Shown: in pieces, positions 1-11,215 of the stretch
Position numbering within the stretch: position 1 is the stretch's first letter
Layout of the letters: each line of letters begins with the position of its first letter
NCBI GenBank assembly: GCA_964576795.1
Contig: CAZNWT010000002.1
Span: forward strand, 65,033-129,032
Length of the DNA: 64,000 nucleotides
Source: an uncultured Victivallales bacterium
GTDB lineage: Bacteria; Verrucomicrobiota; Kiritimatiellia; UBA8416
Direction: 5' to 3'
Notes under the pieces: model-generated
The model's input: the letters and a program-made list of their open reading frames with translations, nothing else
Database searches by the model: none
Told to the model about the DNA's origin: nothing
Position numbers and translations under genes: made by a program

Positions 1-646
1 TGCCACCGATAGCGACCCCAAGCTTTTGAAGACAATTGAGACGCTTCCTGATGTGCTCTACTCGACCCGCCACCATGTAACGATACCTCGCCGCCCGGAA
101 GGCGTTTTGGTCTACATGCGGACCGCCGAACGCAATGATGCGTTGGCCTATGTGAACCAACAAGGTGAAAGCATCACGGAGTCACAGATGGAGATTCTAC
201 GCGCGGCTGCCTGCACCCCGGACACGCCTGCCCTGCCGCGGCATGACGCGCATCACGGACTGGTACAGGCTGGCGTTGAACACATTGTCCGCGAAGAGAA
301 GCGCATCGGCGGTCAGCTTGGCAACCCGCGCGGGGCGAGATTCCGAACTTACGAGCGTCTGAAGCACTATGTTCAGGATATTCAGGGAACCCTGTTTGAG
401 GCGAACTCCGATGAGATCAACAGAGTCCTTGATGAAATCTACAAATTTCCGCTGCGCCAAGTCGCGACGGACACACTCAATCGCCAACTCAAAGCTGGCA
501 TTAGTGACGATCAACTGGCTGAACTTGCCCTTATGCTGCGCGCCGAGGGGCGACTCTGTTTGGTTCACGATGAAGAAGAGGGCCGTGAGCCCCGCATTGT
601 CTGCTCCATGGGGCTATTCAGCGAACCAGGGGAGGAGCAGTCATGA
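1..646 (+). CDS. 3' end of a large upstream gene (5' part lies outside the window); unknown function; stop overlaps start of the next gene (ATGA)
   Basis: Open frame continues to nt 1 (frame 2: ATDSDPKLLKTIE...). Stop overlaps the start of the PglX-like gene, suggesting an operon. No recognisable catalytic motif in the visible 215 aa. A BrxC-like identity is speculation only. Confidence 0.3.
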   Translation, partial: ATDSDPKLLKTIETLPDVLYSTRHHVTIPRRPEGVLVYMRTAERNDALAYVNQQGESITESQMEILRAAACTPDTPALPRHDAHHGLVQAGVEHIVREEKRIGGQLGNPRGARFRTYERLKHYVQDIQGTLFEANSDEINRVLDEIYKFPLRQVATDTLNRQLKAGISDDQLAELALMLRAEGRLCLVHDEEEGREPRIVCSMGLFSEPGEEQS

Positions 647-3600
647 CATTGAATCTCTCTCGCTGCCGTGACTATCTTAACGGTTTCGAATTTCAGAAGC
701 TGTTTATCGAAGAACTCGGATGGTCGAATCCCGGCGCACGGCATGAAACCCCGTTTGCGATCAAGGAGAAGTCATTTTCGCGCTGCCCTCTGGCAGAGCT
801 GGCCGGTGTCATTGCTTTGGAGATTAAGTCCGAGGATGGTGAGATTCCCGATGCCAAGACGCGTCTGGCTATCCATAAGGTCGTCGCAAAACACTACCAC
901 GAGAATCTTCTTATCTTCGTGGATGCCGCTAGCACTCAAAGCCTCTGGTACTGGGTCAAACGCCAGGACGGCAAGCTACACCCCAGAAGCCACACCTATG
1001 TAAAGGGGCAGCCTGGCGATCTGTTCCTCAGCAAACTGAGCGCCATGGTGTTCGAGATTGGTGATTTCGAGGCGACCGGAGACGTCCCCCTCATTGAGGT
1101 GACCGAACGTCTCAAGACTGCGCTTGATGTAGAGCAGGTCACCAAGAAGTTCTACGGCGAATTTCAGGATCAACATCTTGCATTCATGGACCTGATCAAG
1201 GGCATCAAAGATGAGAAGGACCGCCGCTGGTATGCCTCCGTCCTCCTGCATCGTCTGATGTTCATCTATTTCCTCCAGAAGAAGTTCTTCTTGGACGGCG
1301 GGGATGAGTTCTATCTACAGAACAAACTCGCAACCATGCAGCGAAAGGGCAAGGATCTCTATTTTCAAGAGTTCCTCAAGCCTCTCTTCTTTGAAGGATT
1401 TGCCAAACCAGAAGACGACAGAAGTAATTCCATCAAACAGCTCCTCGGAAAGATCAGATACCTCAATGGCGGCCTATTCCTCAGGCACCGCATTGAGATT
1501 GACTGGCCGAACATCACCGTACCTGACGAAGCATTCAAGAACCTGTTGACGCTCTTCGCTGACTATTCATGGAATCTGAATGATACCCCGGGCGGTAAGG
1601 ACAACGAGATCAATCCAGATGTCCTAGGGTATATCTTTGAGAAATATATCAACCAGAAGGCCTTTGGTGCGTACTACACCCGCCCCGAAATCACGGAATA
1701 TCTGTGCGAGCGCACTATTCATCAGCTCATTCTCGATGGGGTAAACAAGAACGCCACGGGGGCATCCCGTCGGTTTGACGAAATAGGCGACCTCCTCCTG
1801 AATCTCGACGCACGTCTCTGTCAGCTTCTGCTTGATCATGTCCTCCCGGATCTTCGCCTGCTCGATCCAGCCTGTGGTTCTGCCGCGTTTCTGGTTGCTG
1901 CCATGAAAACTCTGATCAACGTTTACTCCGCCGTCATCGGGAGGATCGAATTTCTTGGGCATAAAGGGCTCATGAAGAAGCTAGAGAAGATCCAAAAAGA
2001 TCATCCAAGCATCAGCTACTTCATTAAGAAACGCATTATCACGGACAACCTGTTCGGCGTAGACATCATGGAAGAGGCTGTGGAAATAGCAAAGCTGCGG
2101 CTGTTTCTCGCCCTCGTTGCTGCGGCGAGCAAGGTGGAGGAACTCGAACCGTTGCCCAATATCGAATTCAACATCATGGCCGGCAACTCCCTGATCGGGT
2201 TGCTGCATGTTGATCCATCCAAGTTCAACGCCCTAACCGGCGGTTCTGCACATAAGAAAAAACCTGCCATGGTTCGCGAGCCGGGGCCTGATGAGCTTGG
2301 GTTTGCAGTTGAGAGTAAGGTTGCGAAGACGCGCAAGGAGACCGAGCGTGAATATTTGGCCAAGATCCAGGGGCAGAAATTCGAGGAGCTGCTCAAAGAG
2401 AAGAACGAACTGGTGGCCGTCTATCGCCGTGCCACGGGATACGGCACCGACCTCCAACAGTTGCGCGATGGCATTAAAGCGAAGAAACAGGCCGCCCAGA
2501 GCATTCTCAACAAGCTGTTGCTTGAGCAATTCACGAGCTTGGACATCAAGTATGAGCAAGTCACCTGGGACGACAAGAAGAACAAGGCCGGGCGCTCAAA
2601 GAAGCGGGATCTTCGGGAATCCGACATCCTTGCCCAGAAGCCTTTTCATTGGGGCTATGAATTCGACGAAATCATCAATAAGCGAGGCGGCTTCGACGCC
2701 ATCATCACTAACCCGCCTTGGGAGATCTTCAAACCCAACGGCAAGGAGTTCTTCGAGGACTATTCGGATGCCGTGTCCAAGAAGAAAATGACAATCAAAG
2801 AATTCCAGAATGAGCAAGCGAAGCTCCTGAACAATCCGAGGATACTAAGCTCTTGGCTGGACTATCTCAGCGGATTTCCACATCTCAGTGGTTTTTTCCG
2901 ATCGGCGGAGCAATACCACAATCAGATCAGCATCGTGAATGGCAAGAAGGCCGGAACCGATATCAACCTTTACAAGCTCTTCTTAGAGCAGTGTCACAGT
3001 CTGTTGCGATCCGATGGGCGCTGCGGTATTATTGTCCCGAGTGGAGTCTATACTGATCTCGGAACGAAACAGCTGCGCGAGATGCTGTTTGGTTCATCCA
3101 GGATCGACCGTCTCTTCGGCCTCTCGAACGAGAAATTTGTCTTCGAGAACGTCCATCATGCCTTCAAGTTCTGCATCCTGTCGTTTGTAAAGGGGGGGAC
3201 GTCTGAGTCGTTTCAGGCAGCCTTCCGAATCAACCCACGTGAAGCTGTTGCGGCTGACAAACTTGAGGAGTTTCTGCATACATCGTCGGCTCATATTGAT
3301 GTTTCAGTCGGACTAATCAGGAAACTGGCCCCTGATTCGCTATCAGTTATGGAATTCAGGAGTGCGCTAGATGTCCAGATCGCGAAACAGCTCCTCCATG
3401 TCCCCCTTCTCGGAGAAGACATCCCTGGTCAATGGAATCTACGATTCTCTGCTGAGTTTCACATGACCAATGACAGTCACCTATTCAAGACGGAATCAGG
3501 AAAGGGGCGATTACCCCTGTATGAGGGGAAGATGATCTGGCATTTTGATCATCTATATGCAGATCCAAAATGGTGGGTTGAAGAAAATGAGGGGCGTCTG

Positions 3601-4203
3601 AACCTACTTGGCAAGGAAGATGACTCGGGCCAGAAGCTAGGATATGAGTCAATTCGTCTTGGGTTTCGCGACATAACGGCAACAACAAATGAACGATCTC
3701 TTATTGCCTCAATAATCCCGGCGAAATGCTATGCGGGAAACACTCTGGTTGTGTCGTCCACGCAGAATGATCCCCACACTCTGGTGTTTGTTACTTCGCT
3801 CTTCGATAGCTTCACAATCGACTGGCTCATTCGAAAGAAGATAACGGCTCACTGTAACATGTTCTACATGTATCAGCTTCCGATTCCCCGCCTGACCAAA
3901 AAGGATGCGGCCTTGCTCTCTATTGTGGAACGGACAGCCCGCCTGATCTGCACGACTTCCGAATTCGACGATCTTGCGAAAGATATCTTTGGTGGGCGGG
4001 CAACGGCGAAATCTGTTGGTGTAACCGAGTCCGTAGCGTGCGCCAAGCTCCGGGCAGAGCTGGACGGACTCATCGCGCACCTGTACGGGCTAACGGAGGA
4101 TGAGTTCGCGCACATTCTCACGACCTTCCCGCTTGTGCCAGACCCCGTAAAGGTTGCGGCCCGCAATGCGTATCGTGATGTGGAGAAAGGACTGATCAAA
4201 TGA
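643..4203 (+). CDS. PglX/MmeI-family N6-adenine DNA methyltransferase (BREX PglX-like / type IIL-like), 1186 aa
   Basis: Motif 'GAYYTRPEI', SAM motif I 'LDPACGSAAFLVAAM' (~aa 407), motif IV 'ITNPPWEIFKP' (~aa 690), long C-terminal TRD-like region. The size is typical of PglX. Translationally coupled to both flanking genes. Confidence 0.75.
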   Translation: MTLNLSRCRDYLNGFEFQKLFIEELGWSNPGARHETPFAIKEKSFSRCPLAELAGVIALEIKSEDGEIPDAKTRLAIHKVVAKHYHENLLIFVDAASTQSLWYWVKRQDGKLHPRSHTYVKGQPGDLFLSKLSAMVFEIGDFEATGDVPLIEVTERLKTALDVEQVTKKFYGEFQDQHLAFMDLIKGIKDEKDRRWYASVLLHRLMFIYFLQKKFFLDGGDEFYLQNKLATMQRKGKDLYFQEFLKPLFFEGFAKPEDDRSNSIKQLLGKIRYLNGGLFLRHRIEIDWPNITVPDEAFKNLLTLFADYSWNLNDTPGGKDNEINPDVLGYIFEKYINQKAFGAYYTRPEITEYLCERTIHQLILDGVNKNATGASRRFDEIGDLLLNLDARLCQLLLDHVLPDLRLLDPACGSAAFLVAAMKTLINVYSAVIGRIEFLGHKGLMKKLEKIQKDHPSISYFIKKRIITDNLFGVDIMEEAVEIAKLRLFLALVAAASKVEELEPLPNIEFNIMAGNSLIGLLHVDPSKFNALTGGSAHKKKPAMVREPGPDELGFAVESKVAKTRKETEREYLAKIQGQKFEELLKEKNELVAVYRRATGYGTDLQQLRDGIKAKKQAAQSILNKLLLEQFTSLDIKYEQVTWDDKKNKAGRSKKRDLRESDILAQKPFHWGYEFDEIINKRGGFDAIITNPPWEIFKPNGKEFFEDYSDAVSKKKMTIKEFQNEQAKLLNNPRILSSWLDYLSGFPHLSGFFRSAEQYHNQISIVNGKKAGTDINLYKLFLEQCHSLLRSDGRCGIIVPSGVYTDLGTKQLREMLFGSSRIDRLFGLSNEKFVFENVHHAFKFCILSFVKGGTSESFQAAFRINPREAVAADKLEEFLHTSSAHIDVSVGLIRKLAPDSLSVMEFRSALDVQIAKQLLHVPLLGEDIPGQWNLRFSAEFHMTNDSHLFKTESGKGRLPLYEGKMIWHFDHLYADPKWWVEENEGRLNLLGKEDDSGQKLGYESIRLGFRDITATTNERSLIASIIPAKCYAGNTLVVSSTQNDPHTLVFVTSLFDSFTIDWLIRKKITAHCNMFYMYQLPIPRLTKKDAALLSIVERTARLICTTSEFDDLAKDIFGGRATAKSVGVTESVACAKLRAELDGLIAHLYGLTEDEFAHILTTFPLVPDPVKVAARNAYRDVEKGLIK

Positions 4204-5378
4204 AGAAACAACCAAGCCTAACGAGTGTACGCATTCGCAATTTCAAAGCTATACAGGATAGTGGCACCATTAAATTGGAGCCCCTAACGGTTCTGATTGG
4301 GAACAACGGTTCAGGGAAGAGTAGTTTTATCGAAGGCCTGGAAACGTTTGAACGAATAGTACAAGAGGATCTTGATAGTTCCATGGCGCCATGGCATGGA
4401 TTCGATCACGCTTGGAATCAGGGCGTGTCGCATGAAGACCGGCTAGAGACGAAGGAGAAGCGGGCATACCAGACAAATCCTATGACCTTTACCATCACGG
4501 GGAAACATGGAGGCCGCTTTTTGGGGGCTTTTCGCGCGGAGATGGATATTACCATGGGTAATGGAGGAAATGACCTCTTCATTCAGCGGGAGAAGTTGAA
4601 CTTCCGAAAGGGAATCAAGATAGAGCGCGACGACTCAGGGCTTGTGAAATATGACCCCATGCCGCCAGGACGCCAACAGGGCGGGCTGATGGCCGAGGGG
4701 AAATCTGTCATGCAGGACCTCGGTGCTGGTGGCATAGGTCACTGGCAATTTCTTACTCTGGTTCCCCAGAACATGGGGGAACCCGTCGCACAGAAGCGCA
4801 CAGGCGGCAGTATTCGGCTGAGTAAGGATGGCACGAATATAGCTCAGTACCTCCATTGGGTAAAACAGACCGATTCTGCTGCATTTGAGGGCATTCTTGA
4901 CACTATGCAGTACGTCCTTCCCTATGCGCGGGACCTGCAACCGAAGCTCACATCCGAACTCGAACGTGCCGTCAGCCTTGAAATGACCGAACAGGAGTAC
5001 AAGATTCCAGGTTGGTTGTTCTCTACCGGTACGCTTCGTATTCTTGCCCTTCTTGCCCTCCTTCGTAGCCCGGGACCTCCTCCATTAATTGTGGTAGAGG
5101 AAATCGAGAATGGGCTTGATCCCCGGACTATTCAGTTGGTTCTAGAGGAAATTCGAATGTCCGTCCAAGCGGGAGATACACAGGTTATACTAACCACTCA
5201 TTCTCCCTATCTTCTCGACATGCTGCACCTTCAGCATCTGGTGCTCTGTGAGCGAGTCGATGGTGTCCCTACGTTCGTTCGTCCGGCGGACTCAGAGGTG
5301 GTGAGTGATTGGGCTTCAAGCTTTACTCCTGGGAAGTTGTACACGATGGGACGTCTCGACAGGGGGTCGCGATCATGA
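4200..5378 (+). CDS. ABC/AAA-type ATPase (AAA_21/OLD-like, SMC-type head), 392 aa
   Basis: Walker A 'LIGNNGSGKSS', Walker B/D-loop 'LIVVEEIENGLDP', H-loop 'LTTHSPYLLD'. Start overlaps the stop of the upstream methyltransferase gene. Confidence 0.8.
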   Translation: MKKQPSLTSVRIRNFKAIQDSGTIKLEPLTVLIGNNGSGKSSFIEGLETFERIVQEDLDSSMAPWHGFDHAWNQGVSHEDRLETKEKRAYQTNPMTFTITGKHGGRFLGAFRAEMDITMGNGGNDLFIQREKLNFRKGIKIERDDSGLVKYDPMPPGRQQGGLMAEGKSVMQDLGAGGIGHWQFLTLVPQNMGEPVAQKRTGGSIRLSKDGTNIAQYLHWVKQTDSAAFEGILDTMQYVLPYARDLQPKLTSELERAVSLEMTEQEYKIPGWLFSTGTLRILALLALLRSPGPPPLIVVEEIENGLDPRTIQLVLEEIRMSVQAGDTQVILTTHSPYLLDMLHLQHLVLCERVDGVPTFVRPADSEVVSDWASSFTPGKLYTMGRLDRGSRS

Positions 5379-5971
5379 AGATTGGGATGATCTTTGAAAG
5401 CGGTGCGCAAGGAGCCGACTGGCAGGTCTGCAAGCATCTTGCAGAGAAGCTGAACCCGAGCTTGGATGTAGAATATGTCAACCACAGAAACAAACCCGAA
5501 ATGGTCAGTGACTGTGGCAAGGATGTCCGACTCCTTATTGCGCAGGGCTGCGAGAAAGTCCTCATCGTATGGGACCTCTATCCTTCACCGCACGGTAGTA
5601 ACCAAAAGCCATGTCGCAAAGCAGATCGAGACGCCATAATGCAGTCCCTCACGTATGCCGGAATGGAGGCCAAACCTGTTTGTCTTGTCTGTATCACCGA
5701 AGAGTTGGAGGCGTGGCTATTGGCAGACGGAAGAGCACTCACTGCATGTCTTTCAAGAACAAGCCATCCGGTAAAAAGGATCAGGAGCAGCAAAAAACCG
5801 GACCAGATCATCAGCCCAAAGAAGCGTCTGATTAAGCTGTTCAAGGAGAATGGGCGCGGGAAGTACAACAGTCTTGTTGATGCGATGCGCATCATCAAAG
5901 AGCTACCTGATATGACCCATATCCGGCGATCACCATCCTTCAAGCGTTTTGAGGAAAAGTTGACAACATGA
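5375..5971 (+). CDS. Small DUF4276-like protein, partner of the ATPase (TOPRIM-like? family assignment from memory)
   Basis: ATG at 5375 overlaps the ATPase stop (ATGA). The N-terminus 'MKIGMIFESGAQGADWQV' resembles the DUF4276 EG..E start. Such small proteins habitually follow AAA_21 ATPases in defence islands. Confidence 0.4.
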   Translation: MKIGMIFESGAQGADWQVCKHLAEKLNPSLDVEYVNHRNKPEMVSDCGKDVRLLIAQGCEKVLIVWDLYPSPHGSNQKPCRKADRDAIMQSLTYAGMEAKPVCLVCITEELEAWLLADGRALTACLSRTSHPVKRIRSSKKPDQIISPKKRLIKLFKENGRGKYNSLVDAMRIIKELPDMTHIRRSPSFKRFEEKLTT

Positions 5972-5985
5972 AGAGGCTTAGCAAA

Positions 5986-6076
5986 CCGCCAATGGCGGGC
6001 GAAAAGCAACTGTTGCTCCTGCACTATTTCTGTGTTGACAGCTCCAGTCGAATATACTACTCATTTGAGTAGCGTT
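5986..6076 (+). promoter_or_regulatory. Promoter/operator region of the lexA-like gene. Hairpin CCGCCAATGGCGG (5986-5998); palindromes AGCAACTGTTGCT (6005-6017), CTGTGTTGACAG (6030-6041, contains TTGACA) and CTACTCATTTGAGTAG (6056-6071, 5 nt before the ATG)
   Basis: Perfect inverted repeats read directly from the sequence. A -35-like TTGACA sits inside the second palindrome. The third palindrome overlaps the -10/RBS region. Confidence 0.4.
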
Positions 6077-6694
6077 ATGAAGGGGCCAACACCAAAACAG
6101 CGACAGGTACTGGATTACATCCGAGATGCAATCGACTCGGGGCAACCAACGCCATGCGTTCGGGAAATGCGGGACCATTTTGGGCTTCGCAGTACGAGAG
6201 CCGTCTGTGATCGTTTGGATGCCCTCGAGAAGAAGGGCTTGATTGATCGGGATCCAGGGAAAGCACGCTCCGTTCGCCTCGTGGGGGAGGAAGCGAGACA
6301 AGAGGCAACGGTGGTTGTTCCCGTACTGGGTCACATCCCGGCCGGCGTTGCTGTAGATGCCGAGGAGATGGTTGAAGGGACAATTCGTATCGGCGTCGAA
6401 ACGCTTGGCTTCGAGCCGACAGGGAAGACCTTCGCTCTGGTCGTCCATGGTGATTCCATGGAGGGTCGCGGAATTCTAGATGGCGACAGGATCATTGTTG
6501 ATGGAACACGGGAAGCGGAGAACGGCGACATGGTTGCGGCTTTGATAGATCAGGCGTGTTCTCTCAAGACTCTGGTAAAGGATGCAGACGGAGTATTCCT
6601 GAAGCCGGAAAACCCGGCATACGGGAACCTTATACCTGTTGATGACTTACTGATTCAGGGCGTGGCAAGAACGCTAATACGAACAATCGCTTAG
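6077..6694 (+). CDS. lexA: LexA-family repressor (N-terminal winged HTH + S24 self-cleaving peptidase), 205 aa
   Basis: wHTH 'QRQVLDYIRDAIDSGQPTPCVREM', Ala-Gly cleavage site 'IPAGVAV', Ser nucleophile 'HGDSMEG', Lys 'SLKTLVKD'. Sits 7 nt upstream of the second methyltransferase. Confidence 0.8.
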   Translation: MKGPTPKQRQVLDYIRDAIDSGQPTPCVREMRDHFGLRSTRAVCDRLDALEKKGLIDRDPGKARSVRLVGEEARQEATVVVPVLGHIPAGVAVDAEEMVEGTIRIGVETLGFEPTGKTFALVVHGDSMEGRGILDGDRIIVDGTREAENGDMVAALIDQACSLKTLVKDADGVFLKPENPAYGNLIPVDDLLIQGVARTLIRTIA

Positions 6695-6701
6695 ATAGCC
6701 A

Positions 6702-9700
6702 ATGAACAAGCAGAGCAAAACGATAAGCCGAAAGGCACTGGTCGACGCACACCGCAGAGAGGCGCCAGCAGGGCTGCTATTTTATGGCTCACCGGCCGAA
6801 ATGAAGGCCGACTCAGCGCTTACGCCCTATCTTCATGTGCTCATCCGCGCATGGGATGATTTGGGGCTGAGTGGAGTGCTCTGCGTTGATGGTTTGCCGA
6901 CGCTGTATCTTGCCGTCCGGAGTAAGCCGGTTTCCCCAAGCGATGGTGCGTCCCTACAGCGCCTCTTCTGGAATCAAGGCGTTGCAACAGTGCTTGTTGT
7001 TGCCGATGCAACAACCGTCCGCGTCTACTCCGGTTTGGCCAAGCCCACACGTGCGGATGCCTCAACGGGGGAAGACATCGGCCTGGTCGAGGCGCTGAAT
7101 CTTGCGGATTATGCTGTCAATGTGCGCACTTTCCTGCTGCGACTGGCAACGGGCAGTTACTATCGAGCCAACGCGGCGCATTTCTCCCCAGAGCAAACCG
7201 TTGACGCATATCTGCTGAACAACCTGCGGAAGCTCTGTGACAAGCTCGTCGAGAGCAACAGCCGACTCAACGTTGAGAAGGTACACACATTCCTGGCCCG
7301 TATTCTCTTCGCGTGCTACCTGATTGATAGGGGAATCATCGACTTGGATGACCACACAGAATGCCAGCGTTCTTCCGCAACGTCGCTTGGACAGATGCTT
7401 GACGCCTTGGGAACGGTCGAAGACAAGAGACATGCGCTTCATTGCCTTTTCGAAAGGTTGAAGAATGACTTCAACGGGAGCATGTTTGAGCGTGCGACCC
7501 TTTCCGAATGTAGGCAATTGAGTGCCGCTGCGTTGCAGAGTCTGACGGATTTTCTCCAGGGCCATGACCTAGGGACAGGACAATACACTCTTGATTTCTG
7601 GGCGTACGATTTCCGTTTCATTCCCGTGGAGACGATCAGCGCGGTCTATGAAGATTTTCTAAAACGCGAAGACGAGCCAGAAAAGCGGGCCAAGGGCGCA
7701 TACTACACGCCGAGGTTCCTAGCCGAGACGGTCATTGACTTGGCAATCCCTGCTGACGAAACGCTTGAGGGTAAACGCGTCCTTGATCCCGCCTGCGGTT
7801 CCGGCATATTCCTTGTAACGCTTTTTAACCGCATGGCAACCGCATGGGAAGCCGGGCACCCGACCTTGGCGCGTGACTATGGGCGCAAGGCGGACGCCCT
7901 AAACGCTATACTACGTGACCAACTTTGCGGAGTAGATGTCAACCCAACAGCATGCCGCATTGCTTGCTTCAGTCTCTACCTTGCATTTCTTGATCGCTTC
8001 GATCCGCCAGACGTTCAGGGCTATGTTCGTCGTAAGGGAAAACTGCCCAGCATTCTTCTCCATCGCGATCCTAATTCCGACGACTTGCCGACCTTCCCCG
8101 TAATCCGTGAAGACGACTTCCTGGCCCCCACCCATAAACTACCCGAGGGTTTCGATTATGTTGTCGGCAATCCGCCGTGGGAGGGGCGGGGGGCGAGGAA
8201 TGGCAAACATCATCAATTTGCCCGGAAGGTACCCGACCATCTCGCCGAAGGAGCCGTGGCCTGTCTGCTTCTGCCGTCAAAAACCTTCCTGAACGATAAG
8301 ACGAATCAGTTTCAGAGCGAGTGGTTGCGAACCGTGACCGTCGAGGAGGTGGTCCAGCTCGCCGACTACAGTTTCATCTTATTCAAAGAGGCGAAATGCC
8401 CGTGCATGATTGTGCATTTCAGGGCTGCTTTGCCTGACGTGACTGATGCTCTGATCCAGTATTCGGTGCCCAAAGTAACCCATATTGACCGGCGCGATGG
8501 CATCATCCCTGTGGCCCCCGCCGACAGGAAGTTCATCCCCCTCCGACGGATACTGGCTGCTGCGGATCAAGACGCTGCACCTGCAGTCTGGAAAGAATAT
8601 CTCTGGGGCACGCCCCGCGACATCAAGCTCCTCGATCTGCTTCAGCAAATGCCAAAACTGGGTGACATTGCAGGAAAGCCCCGCGAGAAACTGCGGTGGG
8701 TGAAAGGAGAAGGGTTCCAGCCTGCCACCAAAAGTACAACGAACCCGACTCAGCGCCCTTGGAAGAATACCAAACCATTCTTGAAGGCTTCCGCTCCGTT
8801 CCCCGGTCTGTTTGTCCTGCCGGATGACTGCTCTCCCCTCGGCGAGCGGTTCCCTCTGCTTCACCGTGCACGTAACCCCCGTATCTACGAGTCCCCCCTT
8901 GTGTTGGTGAGTCAAGGAATTGGCAAAGACGGATCTGCGAAAGTTACGTATTGCGCTGAGGACGTCGTTTTCCAGGACTCGCTTCAGGTAATCAGCGGGC
9001 CTGCCGAGGACGAAGACCTGCTGATCTTCTTAGCTGTATACGTGCGCTCAAAGCTCGCCAAGTACTTCCTGTTCAATGTTGCAGCGAACTGGGGAACCGA
9101 ACGGGACAAAATGCTGCTTACGGAGCTTCTCTCGCTTCCCCTTCCGTTGCCAGGTTGCGATTACGTTCCAGCGACTGCCGACAAAATCCTAAAGAAGATC
9201 GCCCAGCGGGTCAAAGCACTCAAGCGCCGAATGCTGACCACGCAGCCGGACGCAGATGACGTGTTGGCGCATCAGCAATGGACTGATAACCGGCGGAGAG
9301 AAACCGAAGACCTCCAGCTTGAACTTGATCCTCTTGTGTTTGAGTACTTCGGCCTCATAGACCAGGAGATTGCGTTGGTTGAAGACTGTGTTGACATCGT
9401 CATCCCAAGTGCGACGCCAGCCAGCTTGAGCGCAGAACTGCGAACCCGCGCCCCCATCCAGAAGAACAACTATGAGAACTACTCCGGCGGGCTTTCTTCG
9501 TATGCCGAGACTCTTGGTAACACACTCAATGAGTGGGCCGGGCAATCGCAATCTGACGTGAGAGTGTCGATATCCGGGGGTGTCCATAAAGCCAGTGACA
9601 TGGCCTGCCTTACGGCTGAACTAACAGCCGATCCGCAGCCATTCAGAGAAGTAACACCTTCAGACGAGACTTTCCTATCCGTCGCCAGGCTGGCCGAATC

Positions 9701-9887
9701 ATCGTCATCTCGATCAGGCTGCCTTGACTACCTGCGTGGCATCATTGCATTTGATGGGACTTTCATCCACATTTTCAAGCCGACGGCCCTCATTGGCTGG
9801 ACCCGAACAGCGGCGCTGAACGACGCCGCGGAGATCTATGCCCGTATAGCGGATGCTCGCAACGCCATGCGGGAGGTCGATGCGTGA
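6702..9887 (+). CDS. Second PglX/type-IIG-like N6-adenine methyltransferase with C-terminal TRD-like half and no recognisable nuclease domain, 1061 aa
   Basis: 'KGAYYTPRFLAETVIDLA', motif I 'LDPACGSGIFLV' (~aa 361), motif IV 'VVGNPPWEG' (~aa 489). Long C-terminal region resembles MmeI/PglX TRDs. Confidence 0.8.
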   Translation: MNKQSKTISRKALVDAHRREAPAGLLFYGSPAEMKADSALTPYLHVLIRAWDDLGLSGVLCVDGLPTLYLAVRSKPVSPSDGASLQRLFWNQGVATVLVVADATTVRVYSGLAKPTRADASTGEDIGLVEALNLADYAVNVRTFLLRLATGSYYRANAAHFSPEQTVDAYLLNNLRKLCDKLVESNSRLNVEKVHTFLARILFACYLIDRGIIDLDDHTECQRSSATSLGQMLDALGTVEDKRHALHCLFERLKNDFNGSMFERATLSECRQLSAAALQSLTDFLQGHDLGTGQYTLDFWAYDFRFIPVETISAVYEDFLKREDEPEKRAKGAYYTPRFLAETVIDLAIPADETLEGKRVLDPACGSGIFLVTLFNRMATAWEAGHPTLARDYGRKADALNAILRDQLCGVDVNPTACRIACFSLYLAFLDRFDPPDVQGYVRRKGKLPSILLHRDPNSDDLPTFPVIREDDFLAPTHKLPEGFDYVVGNPPWEGRGARNGKHHQFARKVPDHLAEGAVACLLLPSKTFLNDKTNQFQSEWLRTVTVEEVVQLADYSFILFKEAKCPCMIVHFRAALPDVTDALIQYSVPKVTHIDRRDGIIPVAPADRKFIPLRRILAAADQDAAPAVWKEYLWGTPRDIKLLDLLQQMPKLGDIAGKPREKLRWVKGEGFQPATKSTTNPTQRPWKNTKPFLKASAPFPGLFVLPDDCSPLGERFPLLHRARNPRIYESPLVLVSQGIGKDGSAKVTYCAEDVVFQDSLQVISGPAEDEDLLIFLAVYVRSKLAKYFLFNVAANWGTERDKMLLTELLSLPLPLPGCDYVPATADKILKKIAQRVKALKRRMLTTQPDADDVLAHQQWTDNRRRETEDLQLELDPLVFEYFGLIDQEIALVEDCVDIVIPSATPASLSAELRTRAPIQKNNYENYSGGLSSYAETLGNTLNEWAGQSQSDVRVSISGGVHKASDMACLTAELTADPQPFREVTPSDETFLSVARLAESSSSRSGCLDYLRGIIAFDGTFIHIFKPTALIGWTRTAALNDAAEIYARIADARNAMREVDA

Positions 9888-10519
9888 ATGCCCGAGCTTG
9901 TGTCGCTCTGTTTCCAGAAGACCAGATTCCCGTAATTCTTGATACGGTGCTCGACTGTGCTTCAACTCTTCGCAAGAAGAGCCCCAACGAACTTGAGAAC
10001 CACCTCTCTACCCGCCTTGTGAAGCGCCTCCAAGTCGATCTACGTATGCGCGGCGGCCCATTCGTAGTGTGTCCCGAATACCAAGTACTTGATAAATCTG
10101 TCGATGATGCTCAACACAAAGGTCACATTGATATTTGCTTCGTGACAACACAGGGAAGCGACACATACTTCGCCATCGAGGCAAAGAGGCTGCATGTCAC
10201 ATATGGAAAAGGAAAGTGGACATCTCTGGTTGGAGAATACGTTACGGGCAACCAAGGTATGATGTGTTTCGTGACGGCCAAGTACTCTGCCGCACAACAA
10301 GCGGGTGCAATGCTCGGGTATGTGTTCGACGGCGATACAAACAAAGCACGTGATGGCATATCCAAGTCCATTGACAACAACAGGACGAAACTCAACTTGG
10401 CAGGGACGCAGGGACTTCTGAAATCGCGGATTGTTCATCGAGCAGAGCACGTCGACGAAACGCAGCACCATTTCGGGCGGCGTCCCTTTACCATGTATCA
10501 CCTCTTGGTGCCCGTATGA
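9884..10519 (+). CDS. PD-(D/E)xK restriction-endonuclease-like protein, 211 aa
   Basis: 'VCPEYQV...GHIDICFVTTQGSDTYFAIEAKRL' gives an E...(P)D...ExK arrangement. Start overlaps the methyltransferase stop (ATGA). Confidence 0.5.
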   Translation: MNARACVALFPEDQIPVILDTVLDCASTLRKKSPNELENHLSTRLVKRLQVDLRMRGGPFVVCPEYQVLDKSVDDAQHKGHIDICFVTTQGSDTYFAIEAKRLHVTYGKGKWTSLVGEYVTGNQGMMCFVTAKYSAAQQAGAMLGYVFDGDTNKARDGISKSIDNNRTKLNLAGTQGLLKSRIVHRAEHVDETQHHFGRRPFTMYHLLVPV

Positions 10520-11076
10520 GTATCAGCGGGGAGACTCTGAGGACGGTTGGTGACGCTTCGATCCTGAAGCGCCCCAAGGTGGCGCTGTTCTGCTCGGTCA
10601 AATGTCCTGGAAGACTAATTCTTGAAACCTACGACCTCGCCAAGAAATTTCGCCGCGACGGCATTCTTGTTGTGAGTGGGTTCCATTCCCCCATGGAGCA
10701 GGAATGCCTCCGCATTCTGCTTCAATCCCCACACCCGGTCATCTGGTGTCTCGCTCGCGGCATGTATCGCCGCGTGCCTACTAGCCCGATAGATTGCCGT
10801 CCTGCAGTCGAGGGTGGCCGTCTAGCGATCGTATCCCCGTTTCCGGAGAAGATGCGCCACGTCACTGCGGAGACGGCGATGATTCGGAATCGCTTCGTCG
10901 CCAGCATGGCCGACGCCATCGTGGTTTCCCACGCGACAAGCGGAGGCAAGATGGATGCCCTATGTAGGGAGCTCCTCGCGGCAGGTAAACCGCTCTACAC
11001 CTTTGATCATCCGGCAAACGAAGAACTTCTGCGTGCTGGGGCACAGTCTGTTGCCGCTATGGCGGGTGCTGGTTGA
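10516..11076 (+). CDS. DprA/Smf-like (SLOG Rossmann) protein, 186 aa
   Basis: 'ILVVSGFHSPMEQECLRILL' resembles the DprA 'SGxARGIDxxAH' signature. 'RNRFVASMADAIVVSHATSGGKMDALCRELLAAGKPLYTF' resembles the DprA C-terminal 'RNRiiagls...vvveaa..SGaliTa..Al..gr.vfavPG'. Overlaps the stop of the nuclease gene. Confidence 0.55.
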   Translation: MSISGETLRTVGDASILKRPKVALFCSVKCPGRLILETYDLAKKFRRDGILVVSGFHSPMEQECLRILLQSPHPVIWCLARGMYRRVPTSPIDCRPAVEGGRLAIVSPFPEKMRHVTAETAMIRNRFVASMADAIVVSHATSGGKMDALCRELLAAGKPLYTFDHPANEELLRAGAQSVAAMAGAG

Positions 11077-11183
11077 ACGTAGCAGAGATACAGACGTCAT
11101 TGATCGGAATGGGGCATCGCCTTGCGGCCCGGGGGCGGGCCACCTCTATTTCAGTAAACCAACCCCATTCTGGAATAATGGAG

Positions 11184-11215
11184 CCGGGGCGCCCTCGCCC
11201 CGGCTGGTATGTGCC
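11184..11215 (+). terminator. GC-rich hairpin CCGGGGCG-CCCT-CGCCCCGG after the DprA-like gene (weak T tract)
   Basis: Inverted repeat read from the sequence, located 110 nt past the end of the plus-strand gene array. Confidence 0.3.

What the first reader, a model, noticed from the sequence alone, without database searches (positions are those of the whole stretch)
5972..11215. LexA-like repressor + nuclease-less PglX/type-IIG-like methyltransferase + stand-alone PD-(D/E)xK nuclease + DprA/SLOG protein: candidate undescribed SOS-linked restriction/defence operon
Four genes are packed with 7-nt, -4 and -4 nt junctions. They are a bona fide LexA-type autocleaving repressor (wHTH, AG site, Ser/Lys dyad), a 1061-aa MmeI/PglX-family N6A methyltransferase (GxYYTP, DPACGSG, NPPW, TRD-like tail) without an N-terminal nuclease, a 211-aa PD-(D/E)xK protein (E…HID…EAK), and a DprA/Smf-like Rossmann protein. 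Separating methyltransferase/TRD from nuclease, adding an ssDNA-binding DprA-like partner, and putting it all behind a LexA repressor with three palindromes in its promoter does not match canonical type I/II/III/IV restriction systems, BREX or DISARM as I know them. It suggests a DNA-damage-induced modification/restriction system, or it could be the host lexA heading an SOS operon that contains a defence module.
Basis: partly seen in the sequence, partly recalled or inferred. Interest (0 to 1): 0.85.

Follow-up and report, generated by a model that had tools for sequence, protein, structure and literature searches.

The report
LexA-controlled split restriction-modification cassette
A DNA-damage-sensing LexA-type repressor, a large DNA methyltransferase that has lost its own nuclease, and a small separate restriction nuclease form a three-gene cassette found in many bacterial phyla, which looks like an undescribed way of wiring a restriction system to the SOS signal.

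Summary
The four genes, their junctions (7 nt, -4, -4) and the cited motifs are all present. Comparison with 72 species genomes shows a conserved two-gene core. It is a ~1065-aa PglX/type IIG-like N6-adenine methyltransferase whose N-terminal domain has no conserved catalytic residues, followed by a ~211-aa protein with a BamHI/BglII-like restriction-endonuclease fold (D83, E99-x-K101 invariant).

In 35 of 51 genomes with enough upstream DNA, a LexA-family gene sits 7-91 nt upstream of the methyltransferase. These LexAs:
- keep the Ala-Gly site and the Ser/Lys dyad;
- form three clades, each holding only cassette-linked LexAs, that match the methyltransferase tree;
- carry a 20-bp palindromic operator at their own start codon, whose sequence co-varies with the recognition helix.

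In Verrucomicrobia the operator differs from the published host SOS box. So the LexA most likely belongs to the cassette.

The DprA-like gene joins in only three loci and is an accessory. Only one of the three palindromes (6055-6074) is conserved. No named system or paper matches; annotations read "N-6 DNA methylase" plus "hypothetical protein". Damage-inducible restriction is inferred, not shown. I rate it a new variant of a known kind, of moderate to high interest.

The parts
6035..6040 (+). TTGACA, a -35-like hexamer of the cassette promoter
   Evidence: Read from the sequence. A TTGACA or near-match lies at a similar distance upstream of the operator in most related loci. Its promoter function is inferred; the consensus scan did not call a full promoter because no canonical -10 lies at 16-18 nt.
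6055..6074 (.). Predicted LexA operator, TACTACTCATTTGAGTAGCG. The perfect core is CTACTCA-TT-TGAGTAG at 6057-6072, and it ends 2 nt before the lexA ATG
   Evidence: It is the only match in the 64-kb window. An equivalent 8+4+8 palindrome scores at least 6 of 8 pairs in 28 of 35 cassette loci, against 8% of control windows. The half-site co-varies with the LexA recognition helix. Binding has not been tested.
6077..6694 (+). LexA-family autocleaving repressor, 205 aa
   Evidence: TIGR00498 scores 169.8 bits against a cutoff of 110.95. PF01726 plus PF00717. The A-G site, Ser and Lys are invariant. It is co-inherited with the methyltransferase.
6702..9887 (+). PglX/type IIG-like N6-adenine DNA methyltransferase with a C-terminal target-recognition region and a catalytically degenerate N-terminal domain, 1061 aa
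   Evidence: Pfam and PADLOC hits. The model has pLDDT 83.5. The best Foldseek hit is E. coli BrxX (9ewz_C, E 1e-16, about 1000 columns), followed by CamA, the Salmonella BREX PglX, BpuSI and DrdV. No conserved nuclease motif.
9884..10519 (+). Stand-alone PD-(D/E)xK endonuclease with a BamHI/BglII/OkrAI-like fold, 211 aa. It is the presumed restriction subunit
   Evidence: It directly follows the methyltransferase in 69 of 74 loci. One homologue is fused to the C-terminus of a methyltransferase homologue (P0468).
10516..11076 (+). DprA/SLOG-like Rossmann protein, 186 aa. It is a lineage-specific accessory that is co-transcribed here
   Evidence: PF02481, and PADLOC PsyrA and ShosA. It is adjacent to the cassette only in the window, L007 and L160. 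It fails the DprA equivalog model (32 bits against 191).
11126..11141 (+). G+C-rich hairpin followed by a T-rich tail, a likely operon terminator
   Evidence: Consensus scan only.

Best explanation
This is a mobile three-gene restriction-modification cassette whose first gene is its own LexA-type repressor.

Shown by comparison:
- The methyltransferase and the 211-aa nuclease are an obligate gene pair.
- A LexA gene was added once, at the base of a large crown group of the pair, and has since been co-inherited with it across phyla.
- The LexA keeps an intact self-cleavage apparatus and a matching palindromic operator at its own start.

Inferred mechanism:
1. The LexA dimer binds the 20-bp operator that lies between the -35 box and the start codon. 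This holds the lexA-M-R transcript at a low, self-limited level.
2. The methyltransferase recognises a site through its C-terminal region and methylates adenine, which protects host DNA.
3. The small nuclease is translationally coupled to the methyltransferase. It supplies the cleavage activity that the degenerate N-terminal domain of the methyltransferase no longer has, probably while docked on the methyltransferase.
4. When RecA filaments form on single-stranded DNA, LexA cleaves itself and the whole cassette is derepressed. Such filaments could arise from DNA damage, or from processing of already-cut invading DNA.

In the window lineage a DprA-like gene has been appended, and its role is unknown.
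For: Gene pair: the methyltransferase lies directly upstream of the nuclease in 69 of 74 loci. No other neighbour is conserved except LexA, which is present in 36 of those loci.

Methyltransferase: BrxX/PglX-like full-length fold. The N-terminal domain has no conserved acidic or lysine triad.

LexA linkage:
- 35 of 51 species genomes carry it.
- The LexA and methyltransferase identity matrices correlate at r = 0.88, with 0 of 2000 Mantel permutations reaching that value.
- Cassette LexAs fall in three clades, each holding only cassette-linked LexAs, with bootstrap 92, 80 and 92. These clades mix phyla and contain none of the 67 LexAs from other contexts.
- The same three clades appear in the methyltransferase tree. 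LexA-less members are scattered within them, and L003 holds a LexA remnant.

Operator: it is conserved and co-varies with the recognition helix. In Verrucomicrobia genomes it differs from the host box TGTTC-N4-GAACA, which was validated by gel shift (PMC4951493).

Cleavage residues are invariant.
Against: - No experiment supports DNA binding, RecA-stimulated cleavage, methylation or restriction.
- I could not scan any cassette-bearing genome for a second lexA, so I cannot show that this LexA is additional to the host's own.
- Deep nodes of the LexA tree are weak (support 2-26), so the three cassette clades are not shown to be one clade.
- One cassette LexA (L096) groups with LexAs from other contexts.
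- LexAs from other contexts that head imuB-dnaE2 fusion genes carry the same operator type (L086). The operator is therefore not unique to the cassette and could be a host SOS box in some lineages.
- The target-recognition region is only moderately variable.
- The nuclease resembles self-sufficient type IIP enzymes, so it may not depend on the methyltransferase for targeting.
- Inducing a nuclease during DNA damage has no obvious benefit.
Confidence: 0.6

Rival explanations
1. The lexA is the organism's ordinary (sole or main) SOS repressor. The methyltransferase-nuclease pair is a passenger that has become part of the host lexA operon, so it is one more SOS-regulon member and the LexA is not part of a self-contained cassette.
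For: - The protein passes the LexA equivalog model.
- Only 2 of 69 metagenomic LexAs of similar divergence are followed by the pair.
- LexAs from other contexts, heading a classical imuB-dnaE2 mutagenesis gene, use the same operator type and promoter layout.
- No second lexA lies within the 64-kb window.
Against: - The same tight lexA-M-R arrangement in 35 species across at least five phyla would need many independent insertions at one spot.
- LexA and methyltransferase trees agree at clade level, and the clades mix phyla.
- Cassette operators in Verrucomicrobia differ from the validated host box.
- Metagenomic LexAs with the host-type tandem box (L105, L158) fall outside the cassette clades.
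- L003 shows that the LexA can decay while the pair stays intact.
Confidence: 0.22
2. The LexA-like protein acts only as a controller, like a C protein, that times and limits expression when the cassette enters a new cell. Its S24 domain serves for dimerisation, and DNA damage plays no role.
For: - It is the first gene, it appears to be autoregulated, and its operator overlaps the promoter. The C proteins of type II systems and RptR of type I systems are arranged the same way (PMC3874152; PMC12255303).
- Sixteen genomes do without it.
Against: The Ala-Gly site and the Ser and Lys of the catalytic dyad are invariant in all 31 aligned cassette LexAs, at 36-83% identity to the window's LexA. That is not expected if self-cleavage were dispensable.
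Confidence: 0.12
3. The 211-aa protein is an ordinary sequence-specific type IIP restriction enzyme with its own recognition. The large methyltransferase is merely its cognate modification enzyme, so this is not a split type IIG-like enzyme.
For: - The four best structural matches are homodimeric type IIP enzymes of the GATC-core group.
- The methyltransferase's target-recognition region is not hypervariable.
Against: - The nuclease is unusually well conserved for a type IIP enzyme (54% mean column identity).
- It always follows the same methyltransferase family with a 4-nt overlap.
- One lineage has the two fused.
- PglX/MmeI-type methyltransferases usually modify one strand of asymmetric sites. 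This point is from general knowledge and was not tested here.
Confidence: 0.25

Closest known systems
Type IIG / IIL restriction-modification enzymes (MmeI, BpuSI, DrdV) and the BREX methyltransferase PglX/BrxX
   Same: - A ~1000-aa single chain with an N-terminal domain, a helical spacer, a gamma-class N6-adenine methyltransferase and a C-terminal target-recognition region.
- PADLOC type IIG model PDLC03623 matches residues 58-958.
- The best structural matches are BrxX, the Salmonella BREX PglX, BpuSI and DrdV.
   Different: - The N-terminal domain has no conserved PD-(D/E)xK residues, and the nuclease is a separate 211-aa protein.
- No BREX partner genes are present, and BREX PglX models score 30-70 bits against cutoffs of 400-900.
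Controller (C) proteins of type II systems and RptR of type I systems
   Same: The first gene of the operon is a dimeric repressor that binds palindromes overlapping its own promoter. This limits expression of the restriction-modification genes (PMC3874152, PMC12255303).
   Different: - The repressor here is a full LexA with an S24 self-cleaving domain, so it has a built-in input from RecA and DNA damage.
- C proteins and RptR are small proteins of about 80 aa with no known sensor.
DNA-damage-coupled regulators of defence systems: CapW/BrxR (WYL), CapH-CapP, and DdaA in Moraxellaceae
   Same: Defence operons are held off by a linked regulator and released by single-stranded DNA or a damage signal. 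DdaA sites precede restriction-modification and N-6 methylase genes (PMC11662680, PMC9122601, PMC12392091).
   Different: - The protein family and sensing chemistry differ: RecA-stimulated self-cleavage, as opposed to ssDNA binding by a WYL domain or cleavage by a partner protease.
- Here the regulator is co-inherited with one particular enzyme pair.
lexA-linked mobile SOS mutagenesis cassette (lexA2-imuA-imuB-dnaE2)
   Same: A LexA gene heads a cargo operon. I saw lexA followed by an imuB-dnaE2 fusion gene in 8 metagenomic loci, some with the same operator type. That such cassettes are mobile is from my own knowledge of the literature.
   Different: The cargo here is a restriction-modification pair and not translesion polymerases.
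PsyrTA / Shosta antitoxins (for the DprA-like gene)
   Same: The 186-aa protein matches the PADLOC PsyrA model (6e-18) and the ShosA model (1e-4).
   Different: No PsyrT helicase or ShosT toxin gene is adjacent. The protein covers only the Rossmann core.

Membership tests
LexA repressor (TIGR00498) | Full-length match above the curated equivalog cutoff; N-terminal winged helix plus C-terminal S24 peptidase | tested here: met
   169.8 bits against a cutoff of 110.95; PF01726 plus PF00717.
LexA repressor (TIGR00498) | Ala-Gly cleavage site and Ser/Lys catalytic dyad | tested here: met
   A89-G90, S127 and K164 are invariant in the 31 aligned cassette LexAs.
LexA repressor (TIGR00498) | Palindromic operator in its own promoter (autoregulation) | tested here: met
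   This is sequence-level evidence only. The 20-bp palindrome at 6055-6074 is conserved in 28 of 35 loci against 8% of controls, and it co-varies with the recognition helix.
LexA repressor (TIGR00498) | RecA-stimulated self-cleavage | not testable with these tools
   Needs biochemistry.
LexA repressor (TIGR00498) | Global regulator of the host SOS regulon (operators at recA, uvrA and other SOS genes) | tested here: inconclusive
   The operator occurs once in the 64-kb window. Whole genomes could not be scanned. In Verrucomicrobia the cassette operator differs from the host box.
Type IIG restriction-modification enzyme | Gamma-class N6-adenine methyltransferase motifs plus a C-terminal recognition region in one chain | tested here: met
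   DPACGSG and NPPW are conserved. PDLC03623 matches residues 58-958. The fold matches BpuSI and DrdV.
Type IIG restriction-modification enzyme | Active PD-(D/E)xK (or other) nuclease domain in the same polypeptide | tested here: not met
   No conserved D...ExK in residues 1-170. The D63 column is variable. A profile of the N-terminal domain finds nothing in the PDB.
BREX | PglX together with PglZ, BrxC, BrxL and other BREX genes; PglX model above cutoff | tested here: not met
   BREX PglX models score 30-70 bits against cutoffs of 400-900. No conserved neighbours other than LexA and the nuclease.
Type III restriction-modification | Mod methyltransferase plus a Res subunit with an SF2 helicase motor | tested here: not met
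   The partner is a 211-aa nuclease-only protein with no ATPase.
Restriction-endonuclease (PD-(D/E)xK) fold, for the 211-aa protein | The alpha-beta-beta-beta-alpha-beta core, with an acidic residue on strand 2 and (D/E)xK on strand 3 | tested here: met
DprA (TIGR00732) | Equivalog score; SAM, Rossmann and winged-helix domains | tested here: not met
   32.3 bits against a cutoff of 191. Only the Rossmann core is present (PF02481 positions 33-166).
PsyrTA / Shosta | The DprA-like antitoxin sits next to its toxin (a RecQ-like helicase or a PRTase) | tested here: not met
   No such gene is adjacent in the window, L007 or L160.

The most novel reading that the evidence does not exclude
A dedicated LexA paralogue turns a restriction-modification system into a RecA-triggered, inducible defence. 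The first cuts in invading DNA, or any DNA damage, produce RecA filaments. These destroy the cassette's own repressor and boost restriction and modification together. In the same cassette the type IIG-like enzyme has handed cleavage to a separate BamHI-fold subunit that docks on its dead nuclease domain.
Probability: 0.4. Interest if true: 0.72.

Novelty: new variant of a known kind. Interest (0 to 1): 0.6.

Why it matters
Restriction-modification systems are usually treated as constitutive, or as controlled by small C proteins that have no sensor. A LexA that travels with the enzyme genes would be a direct link between the RecA damage signal and restriction. It would add to the recent WYL and CapH-CapP examples and could be tested with standard assays.

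The finding also matters for annotation. Current tools label the methyltransferase as a self-contained type IIG enzyme and leave its nuclease partner as a hypothetical protein. That partner family has 1189 cluster representatives at E <= 0.001. The split architecture offers a natural case for studying how a recognition and methylation module recruits a nuclease acting in trans.

Tried and rejected
- **Four-gene unit.** Rejected. The DprA-like gene is adjacent in only 3 loci, and its family is otherwise found in unrelated contexts.
- **All three palindromes as operators.** Rejected for 5987-5999 and 6005-6017, which are absent from the closest relatives L001 and L160.
- **A replacement regulator in LexA-less loci.** None was found; upstream ORFs are unrelated to each other.
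- **Further conserved neighbours.** All-against-all clustering of flanking ORFs found none. Eco57I-like genes recur upstream in 5 loci but are only distantly related to each other.
- **N-terminal domain of the methyltransferase on its own.** A sequence profile against the PDB gave nothing. The domain is therefore described only from the full-length model and from conservation.
- **AlphaFold-database fold search for the nuclease.** The library was unavailable.
- **Plasmid collection.** Only distant relatives at 27-37% identity, annotated "N-6 DNA methylase" plus "hypothetical protein".
- **Literature.** Five searches found no LexA-headed restriction-modification system.
Full report
**What is in the window**

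- The lexA-like gene is best started at ATG 6077. The ORF opens at GTG 6032, but both LexA models align from residue 16 of that ORF. It ends at 6694.
- The methyltransferase starts 7 nt later, at 6702, and ends at 9887.
- The 211-aa gene starts at GTG 9884, inside the methyltransferase stop codon.
- The DprA-like gene starts at ATG 10516, inside the stop codon of the 211-aa gene, and ends at 11076.
- A G+C-rich hairpin with a T-rich tail follows at 11126-11141.
- Upstream lie a separate Eco57I-type type IIG gene (643-4203) and an AAA_21 plus DUF4276 pair (4200-5971; PADLOC candidate HEC-01). The region is therefore a defence island.

**The four proteins**

*LexA.* It has the LexA DNA-binding domain and the S24 peptidase domain. 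It passes the NCBIfam LexA equivalog model at 169.8 bits against a cutoff of 110.95.

*Methyltransferase.* It hits N6_Mtase, MmeI_Mtase and Eco57I in Pfam. PADLOC type IIG model PDLC03623 matches residues 58-958. All BREX PglX and MADS2 models score far below their cutoffs.
- A full-length AlphaFold model (pLDDT 83.5, pTM 0.83) is most similar to E. coli BrxX over about 1000 columns. CamA, the Salmonella BREX PglX, BpuSI and DrdV follow.
- Residues 1-133 have an alpha-beta-beta-beta-alpha-beta layout. Alignments of 30-55 homologues show no conserved acidic or lysine triad. The column of D63 reads D/E/N/S/R/H, and no ExK follows it.
- A profile of this domain finds nothing in the PDB.
I could not search the domain's fold on its own.

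*211-aa protein.* It has no hit in Pfam, NCBIfam or PADLOC.
- D83 lies on strand 78-88, and E99-A-K101 lies on strand 95-103. These residues are invariant in 31 homologues.

*DprA-like protein.* It matches the Rossmann core of PF02481 and the PADLOC models PsyrA and ShosA. It fails the DprA equivalog model, with 32 bits against 191.

**What is conserved elsewhere**

The 211-aa family has 417 close homologues, all unnamed. A profile search gives 1189 cluster representatives at E <= 0.001.

A scan of one genome per species returned 72 loci from these groups:
- Verrucomicrobiota
- Lentisphaerota
- Kiritimatiellia
- Planctomycetota
- Desulfobacterota
- Acidobacteriota
- Chloroflexota
- Nitrospinota
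- Spirochaetota
- Pseudomonadota

Main findings from these loci:
- A methyltransferase homologue lies directly upstream of the nuclease in 69 of 74 non-redundant loci. The other five are mostly cut at a contig end.
- Clustering of all flanking ORFs found only one further recurrent gene, LexA, in 36 loci.
- Among the species genomes with at least 800 nt upstream of the methyltransferase, 35 of 51 have a LexA gene ending 7-91 nt before it, and 16 do not.
- The LexA-less loci share no substitute regulator.
- L003 keeps a broken C-terminal fragment of LexA in the same place.
- One homologue, P0468 (1312 aa), is a methyltransferase homologue with the nuclease domain fused at residues 1102-1309. This supports a functional link. 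It is a single case, and an assembly frameshift cannot be excluded.

**Does the LexA belong to the cassette or to the host?**

Evidence that it belongs to the cassette:
1. All aligned cassette LexAs keep the Ala-Gly site, the serine (G[DNE]SM) and the lysine (LKT).
2. The pairwise identities of LexA and methyltransferase correlate at r = 0.88, and 0 of 2000 Mantel permutations reach that value.
3. I used an alignment of cassette LexAs to pull 80 LexA loci from metagenomes.
   - Only 2 of the 69 with downstream DNA carry the methyltransferase-nuclease pair.
   - Eight are followed by an imuB-dnaE2 fusion gene of about 1450 aa.
   - Most of the rest sit in what look like housekeeping contexts.
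4. In a neighbour-joining tree of all 116 sequences, 36 of the 37 cassette LexAs fall in three clades with bootstrap 92, 80 and 92 for their cores.
   - Apart from two LexAs on contigs too short to classify, these clades hold only cassette-linked LexAs.
   - They hold none of the LexAs from other contexts.
   - Each mixes phyla, for example Acidobacteriota with Verrucomicrobiota, or Desulfobacterota with Verrucomicrobiota and Pseudomonadota.
5. The same three clades appear in the methyltransferase tree. LexA-less lineages (alphaproteobacteria, Nitrospinota, Planctomycetota) are basal, and LexA-less members are scattered within the crown. The simplest history is one gain followed by several losses.
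6. The Verrucomicrobia host LexA box, validated by gel shift, is TGTTC-N4-GAACA (PMC4951493).
   - Cassette operators in Verrucomicrobia genomes are TACTACTC-N4-GAGTAGTA, CTATAC-N4-GTATAG or GAAC-N4-GTTC.
   - Metagenomic LexAs with the host-type tandem box (L105, L158) fall outside the cassette clades.

Evidence on the other side:
- Deep nodes of the tree are weak.
- One cassette LexA (L096) groups with LexAs from other contexts.
- LexAs heading imuB-dnaE2 genes can carry the same operator type (L086).
- I could not scan any cassette genome for a second lexA.

I put about 0.75 on a cassette-dedicated paralogue and about 0.2 on the host LexA.

**The operator**

- The 20-mer TACTACTCATTTGAGTAGCG (6055-6074) ends 2 nt before the ATG. 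TTGACA lies at 6035-6040.
- It is the only match in the window, against 0.03 expected by chance.
- An 8+4+8 palindrome with at least 6 of 8 pairs lies within -30 to +3 of the LexA start in 28 of 35 loci, against 8% of control windows. In three more loci the palindrome spans the start codon.
- The half-site tracks the recognition helix:

| Recognition helix | Operator half-site |
|---|---|
| ST(R/K)A.(C/R)D | TACTAC(T/C) |
| SPKAA.DH | TACTATAC |
| S(T/P)NAA..L | (T)GAACA |

- No Shine-Dalgarno sequence fits between the operator and the ATG. The transcript probably has a very short leader or none. This is inferred.
I treat them as unexplained or chance.

**The DprA-like gene**

- It is adjacent to the nuclease only in the window, in L007 (200 nt downstream, 77% identical) and in L160 (4-nt overlap, 75% identical).
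- Its family has more than 600 members at 65-87% identity. That makes it more conserved than the cassette itself.
- Elsewhere it sits in unrelated neighbourhoods.
- No PsyrT-like or ShosT-like partner is nearby.
- It is co-transcribed here, but it is an accessory of one sub-lineage and its role is unknown.

**How it most likely works**

Shown:
- the composition of the cassette;
- co-inheritance of its three genes;
- intact catalytic and cleavage residues;
- the conserved operator.

Inferred:
1. LexA represses its own lexA-M-R transcript from the operator.
2. The methyltransferase recognises and methylates host sites.
3. The small nuclease cuts unmodified DNA, probably while recruited by the methyltransferase, whose degenerate N-terminal domain may act as the docking partner.
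4. RecA filaments trigger LexA self-cleavage and release the operon.

The benefit could be a boost of defence once invading DNA has been cut and processed, or pre-emptive arming when damage induces prophages in the community. The latter argument was made for DdaA-controlled defence genes (PMC12392091). The control could also, or instead, serve establishment in a new host, as with C proteins. The invariance of the cleavage residues argues that the damage input matters.

**Comparison with known systems and novelty**

- The methyltransferase is recognisably of the type IIG/PglX kind, but it fails the defining type IIG feature of an in-chain nuclease.
- The pair lacks the helicase of type III systems and the partner genes of BREX.
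- Operon-first autoregulated repressors of restriction-modification systems are known (C proteins, RptR). Damage-sensing repressors of defence systems are also known (CapW/BrxR, CapH-CapP, DdaA).
- A LexA-family version bound to one restriction-modification pair did not turn up in five literature searches, or in the two reviews I checked.
- RefSeq annotates distant plasmid relatives as "N-6 DNA methylase" plus "hypothetical protein".
- I rate it a new variant of a known kind with interest 0.6.

Noticed in passing
window 643-5971: A 1186-aa Eco57I-type type IIG gene (PADLOC REase_MTase_IIG, 4e-122) overlaps by 4 nt an AAA_21 ATPase gene (4200-5378). That gene in turn overlaps by 4 nt a DUF4276 gene (5375-5971). 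The last two match PADLOC candidate system HEC-01 and, weakly, MADS3 and MADS4. The tight coupling suggests that the three may act as one system.
   Followed up: partly
L001 (JABGQM010000021.1) 1-10564: In the closest relative (83% identical), the LexA-methyltransferase-nuclease cassette and two small unknown genes sit between a JetC-like gene (SbcC_Walker_B, 1387 aa) and a JetD-like gene (DUF3323 plus DUF2399). It looks as if the cassette was inserted inside a Wadjet operon.
   Followed up: no
L160 7607-9710: In another relative, the cassette plus the DprA-like gene is followed directly by a CD-NTase and a Cap15-like effector (CBASS). An Eco57I-family gene ends 70 nt upstream of lexA.
   Followed up: no
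P0468 (protein from the representatives library): This 1312-aa protein joins a methyltransferase homologue (33% identical over its full length) to the nuclease domain at residues 1102-1309. Its methyltransferase motifs look degenerate: GLPW in place of NPPW, no YYTP, and no Pfam hit. It may be a methylation-dead single-chain nuclease, or an assembly frameshift.
   Followed up: partly
L082, L084, L086, L091, L100, L104, L107, L108: Metagenomic lexA genes are followed by a single ORF of about 1430-1570 aa that fuses a Y-family (ImuB/DinB-like) domain to a PHP plus DnaE polymerase. Some have the same operator type and promoter layout as the cassette (L086: ACTACTCGTTTGAGTAGT).
   Followed up: partly
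L003 4537-4789: A broken C-terminal fragment of the LexA gene lies directly upstream of an intact methyltransferase-nuclease pair. This is direct evidence that the regulator can be lost.
   Followed up: partly
window 10516-11076 and its family (P0243-P0361): The ~190-aa DprA-like protein family is very conserved (65-87% identity over more than 600 proteins). It appears as a short gene at the 3' end of unrelated operons, and in L161 it overlaps a 52-aa upstream ORF by 4 nt. Longer versions of about 300 aa also exist. Its function is unknown.
   Followed up: partly
window 5987-5999 and 6005-6017: Two perfect 6+1+6 palindromes (CCGCCAATGGCGG and AGCAACTGTTGCT) lie between the DUF4276 stop codon and the cassette promoter. 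They are not conserved in L001 or L160. About 0.17 such palindromes would be expected by chance in 105 nt, by my own rough estimate. The first might be a terminator remnant of the upstream operon.
   Followed up: partly
L078 (Mameliella alba plasmid pKUB112) 3310-7534: In this distant plasmid-borne relative of the pair, a 158-aa hypothetical protein with no Pfam hit overlaps the methyltransferase start by 4 nt, in the position that LexA occupies elsewhere. It may be an alternative first-gene partner.
   Followed up: no
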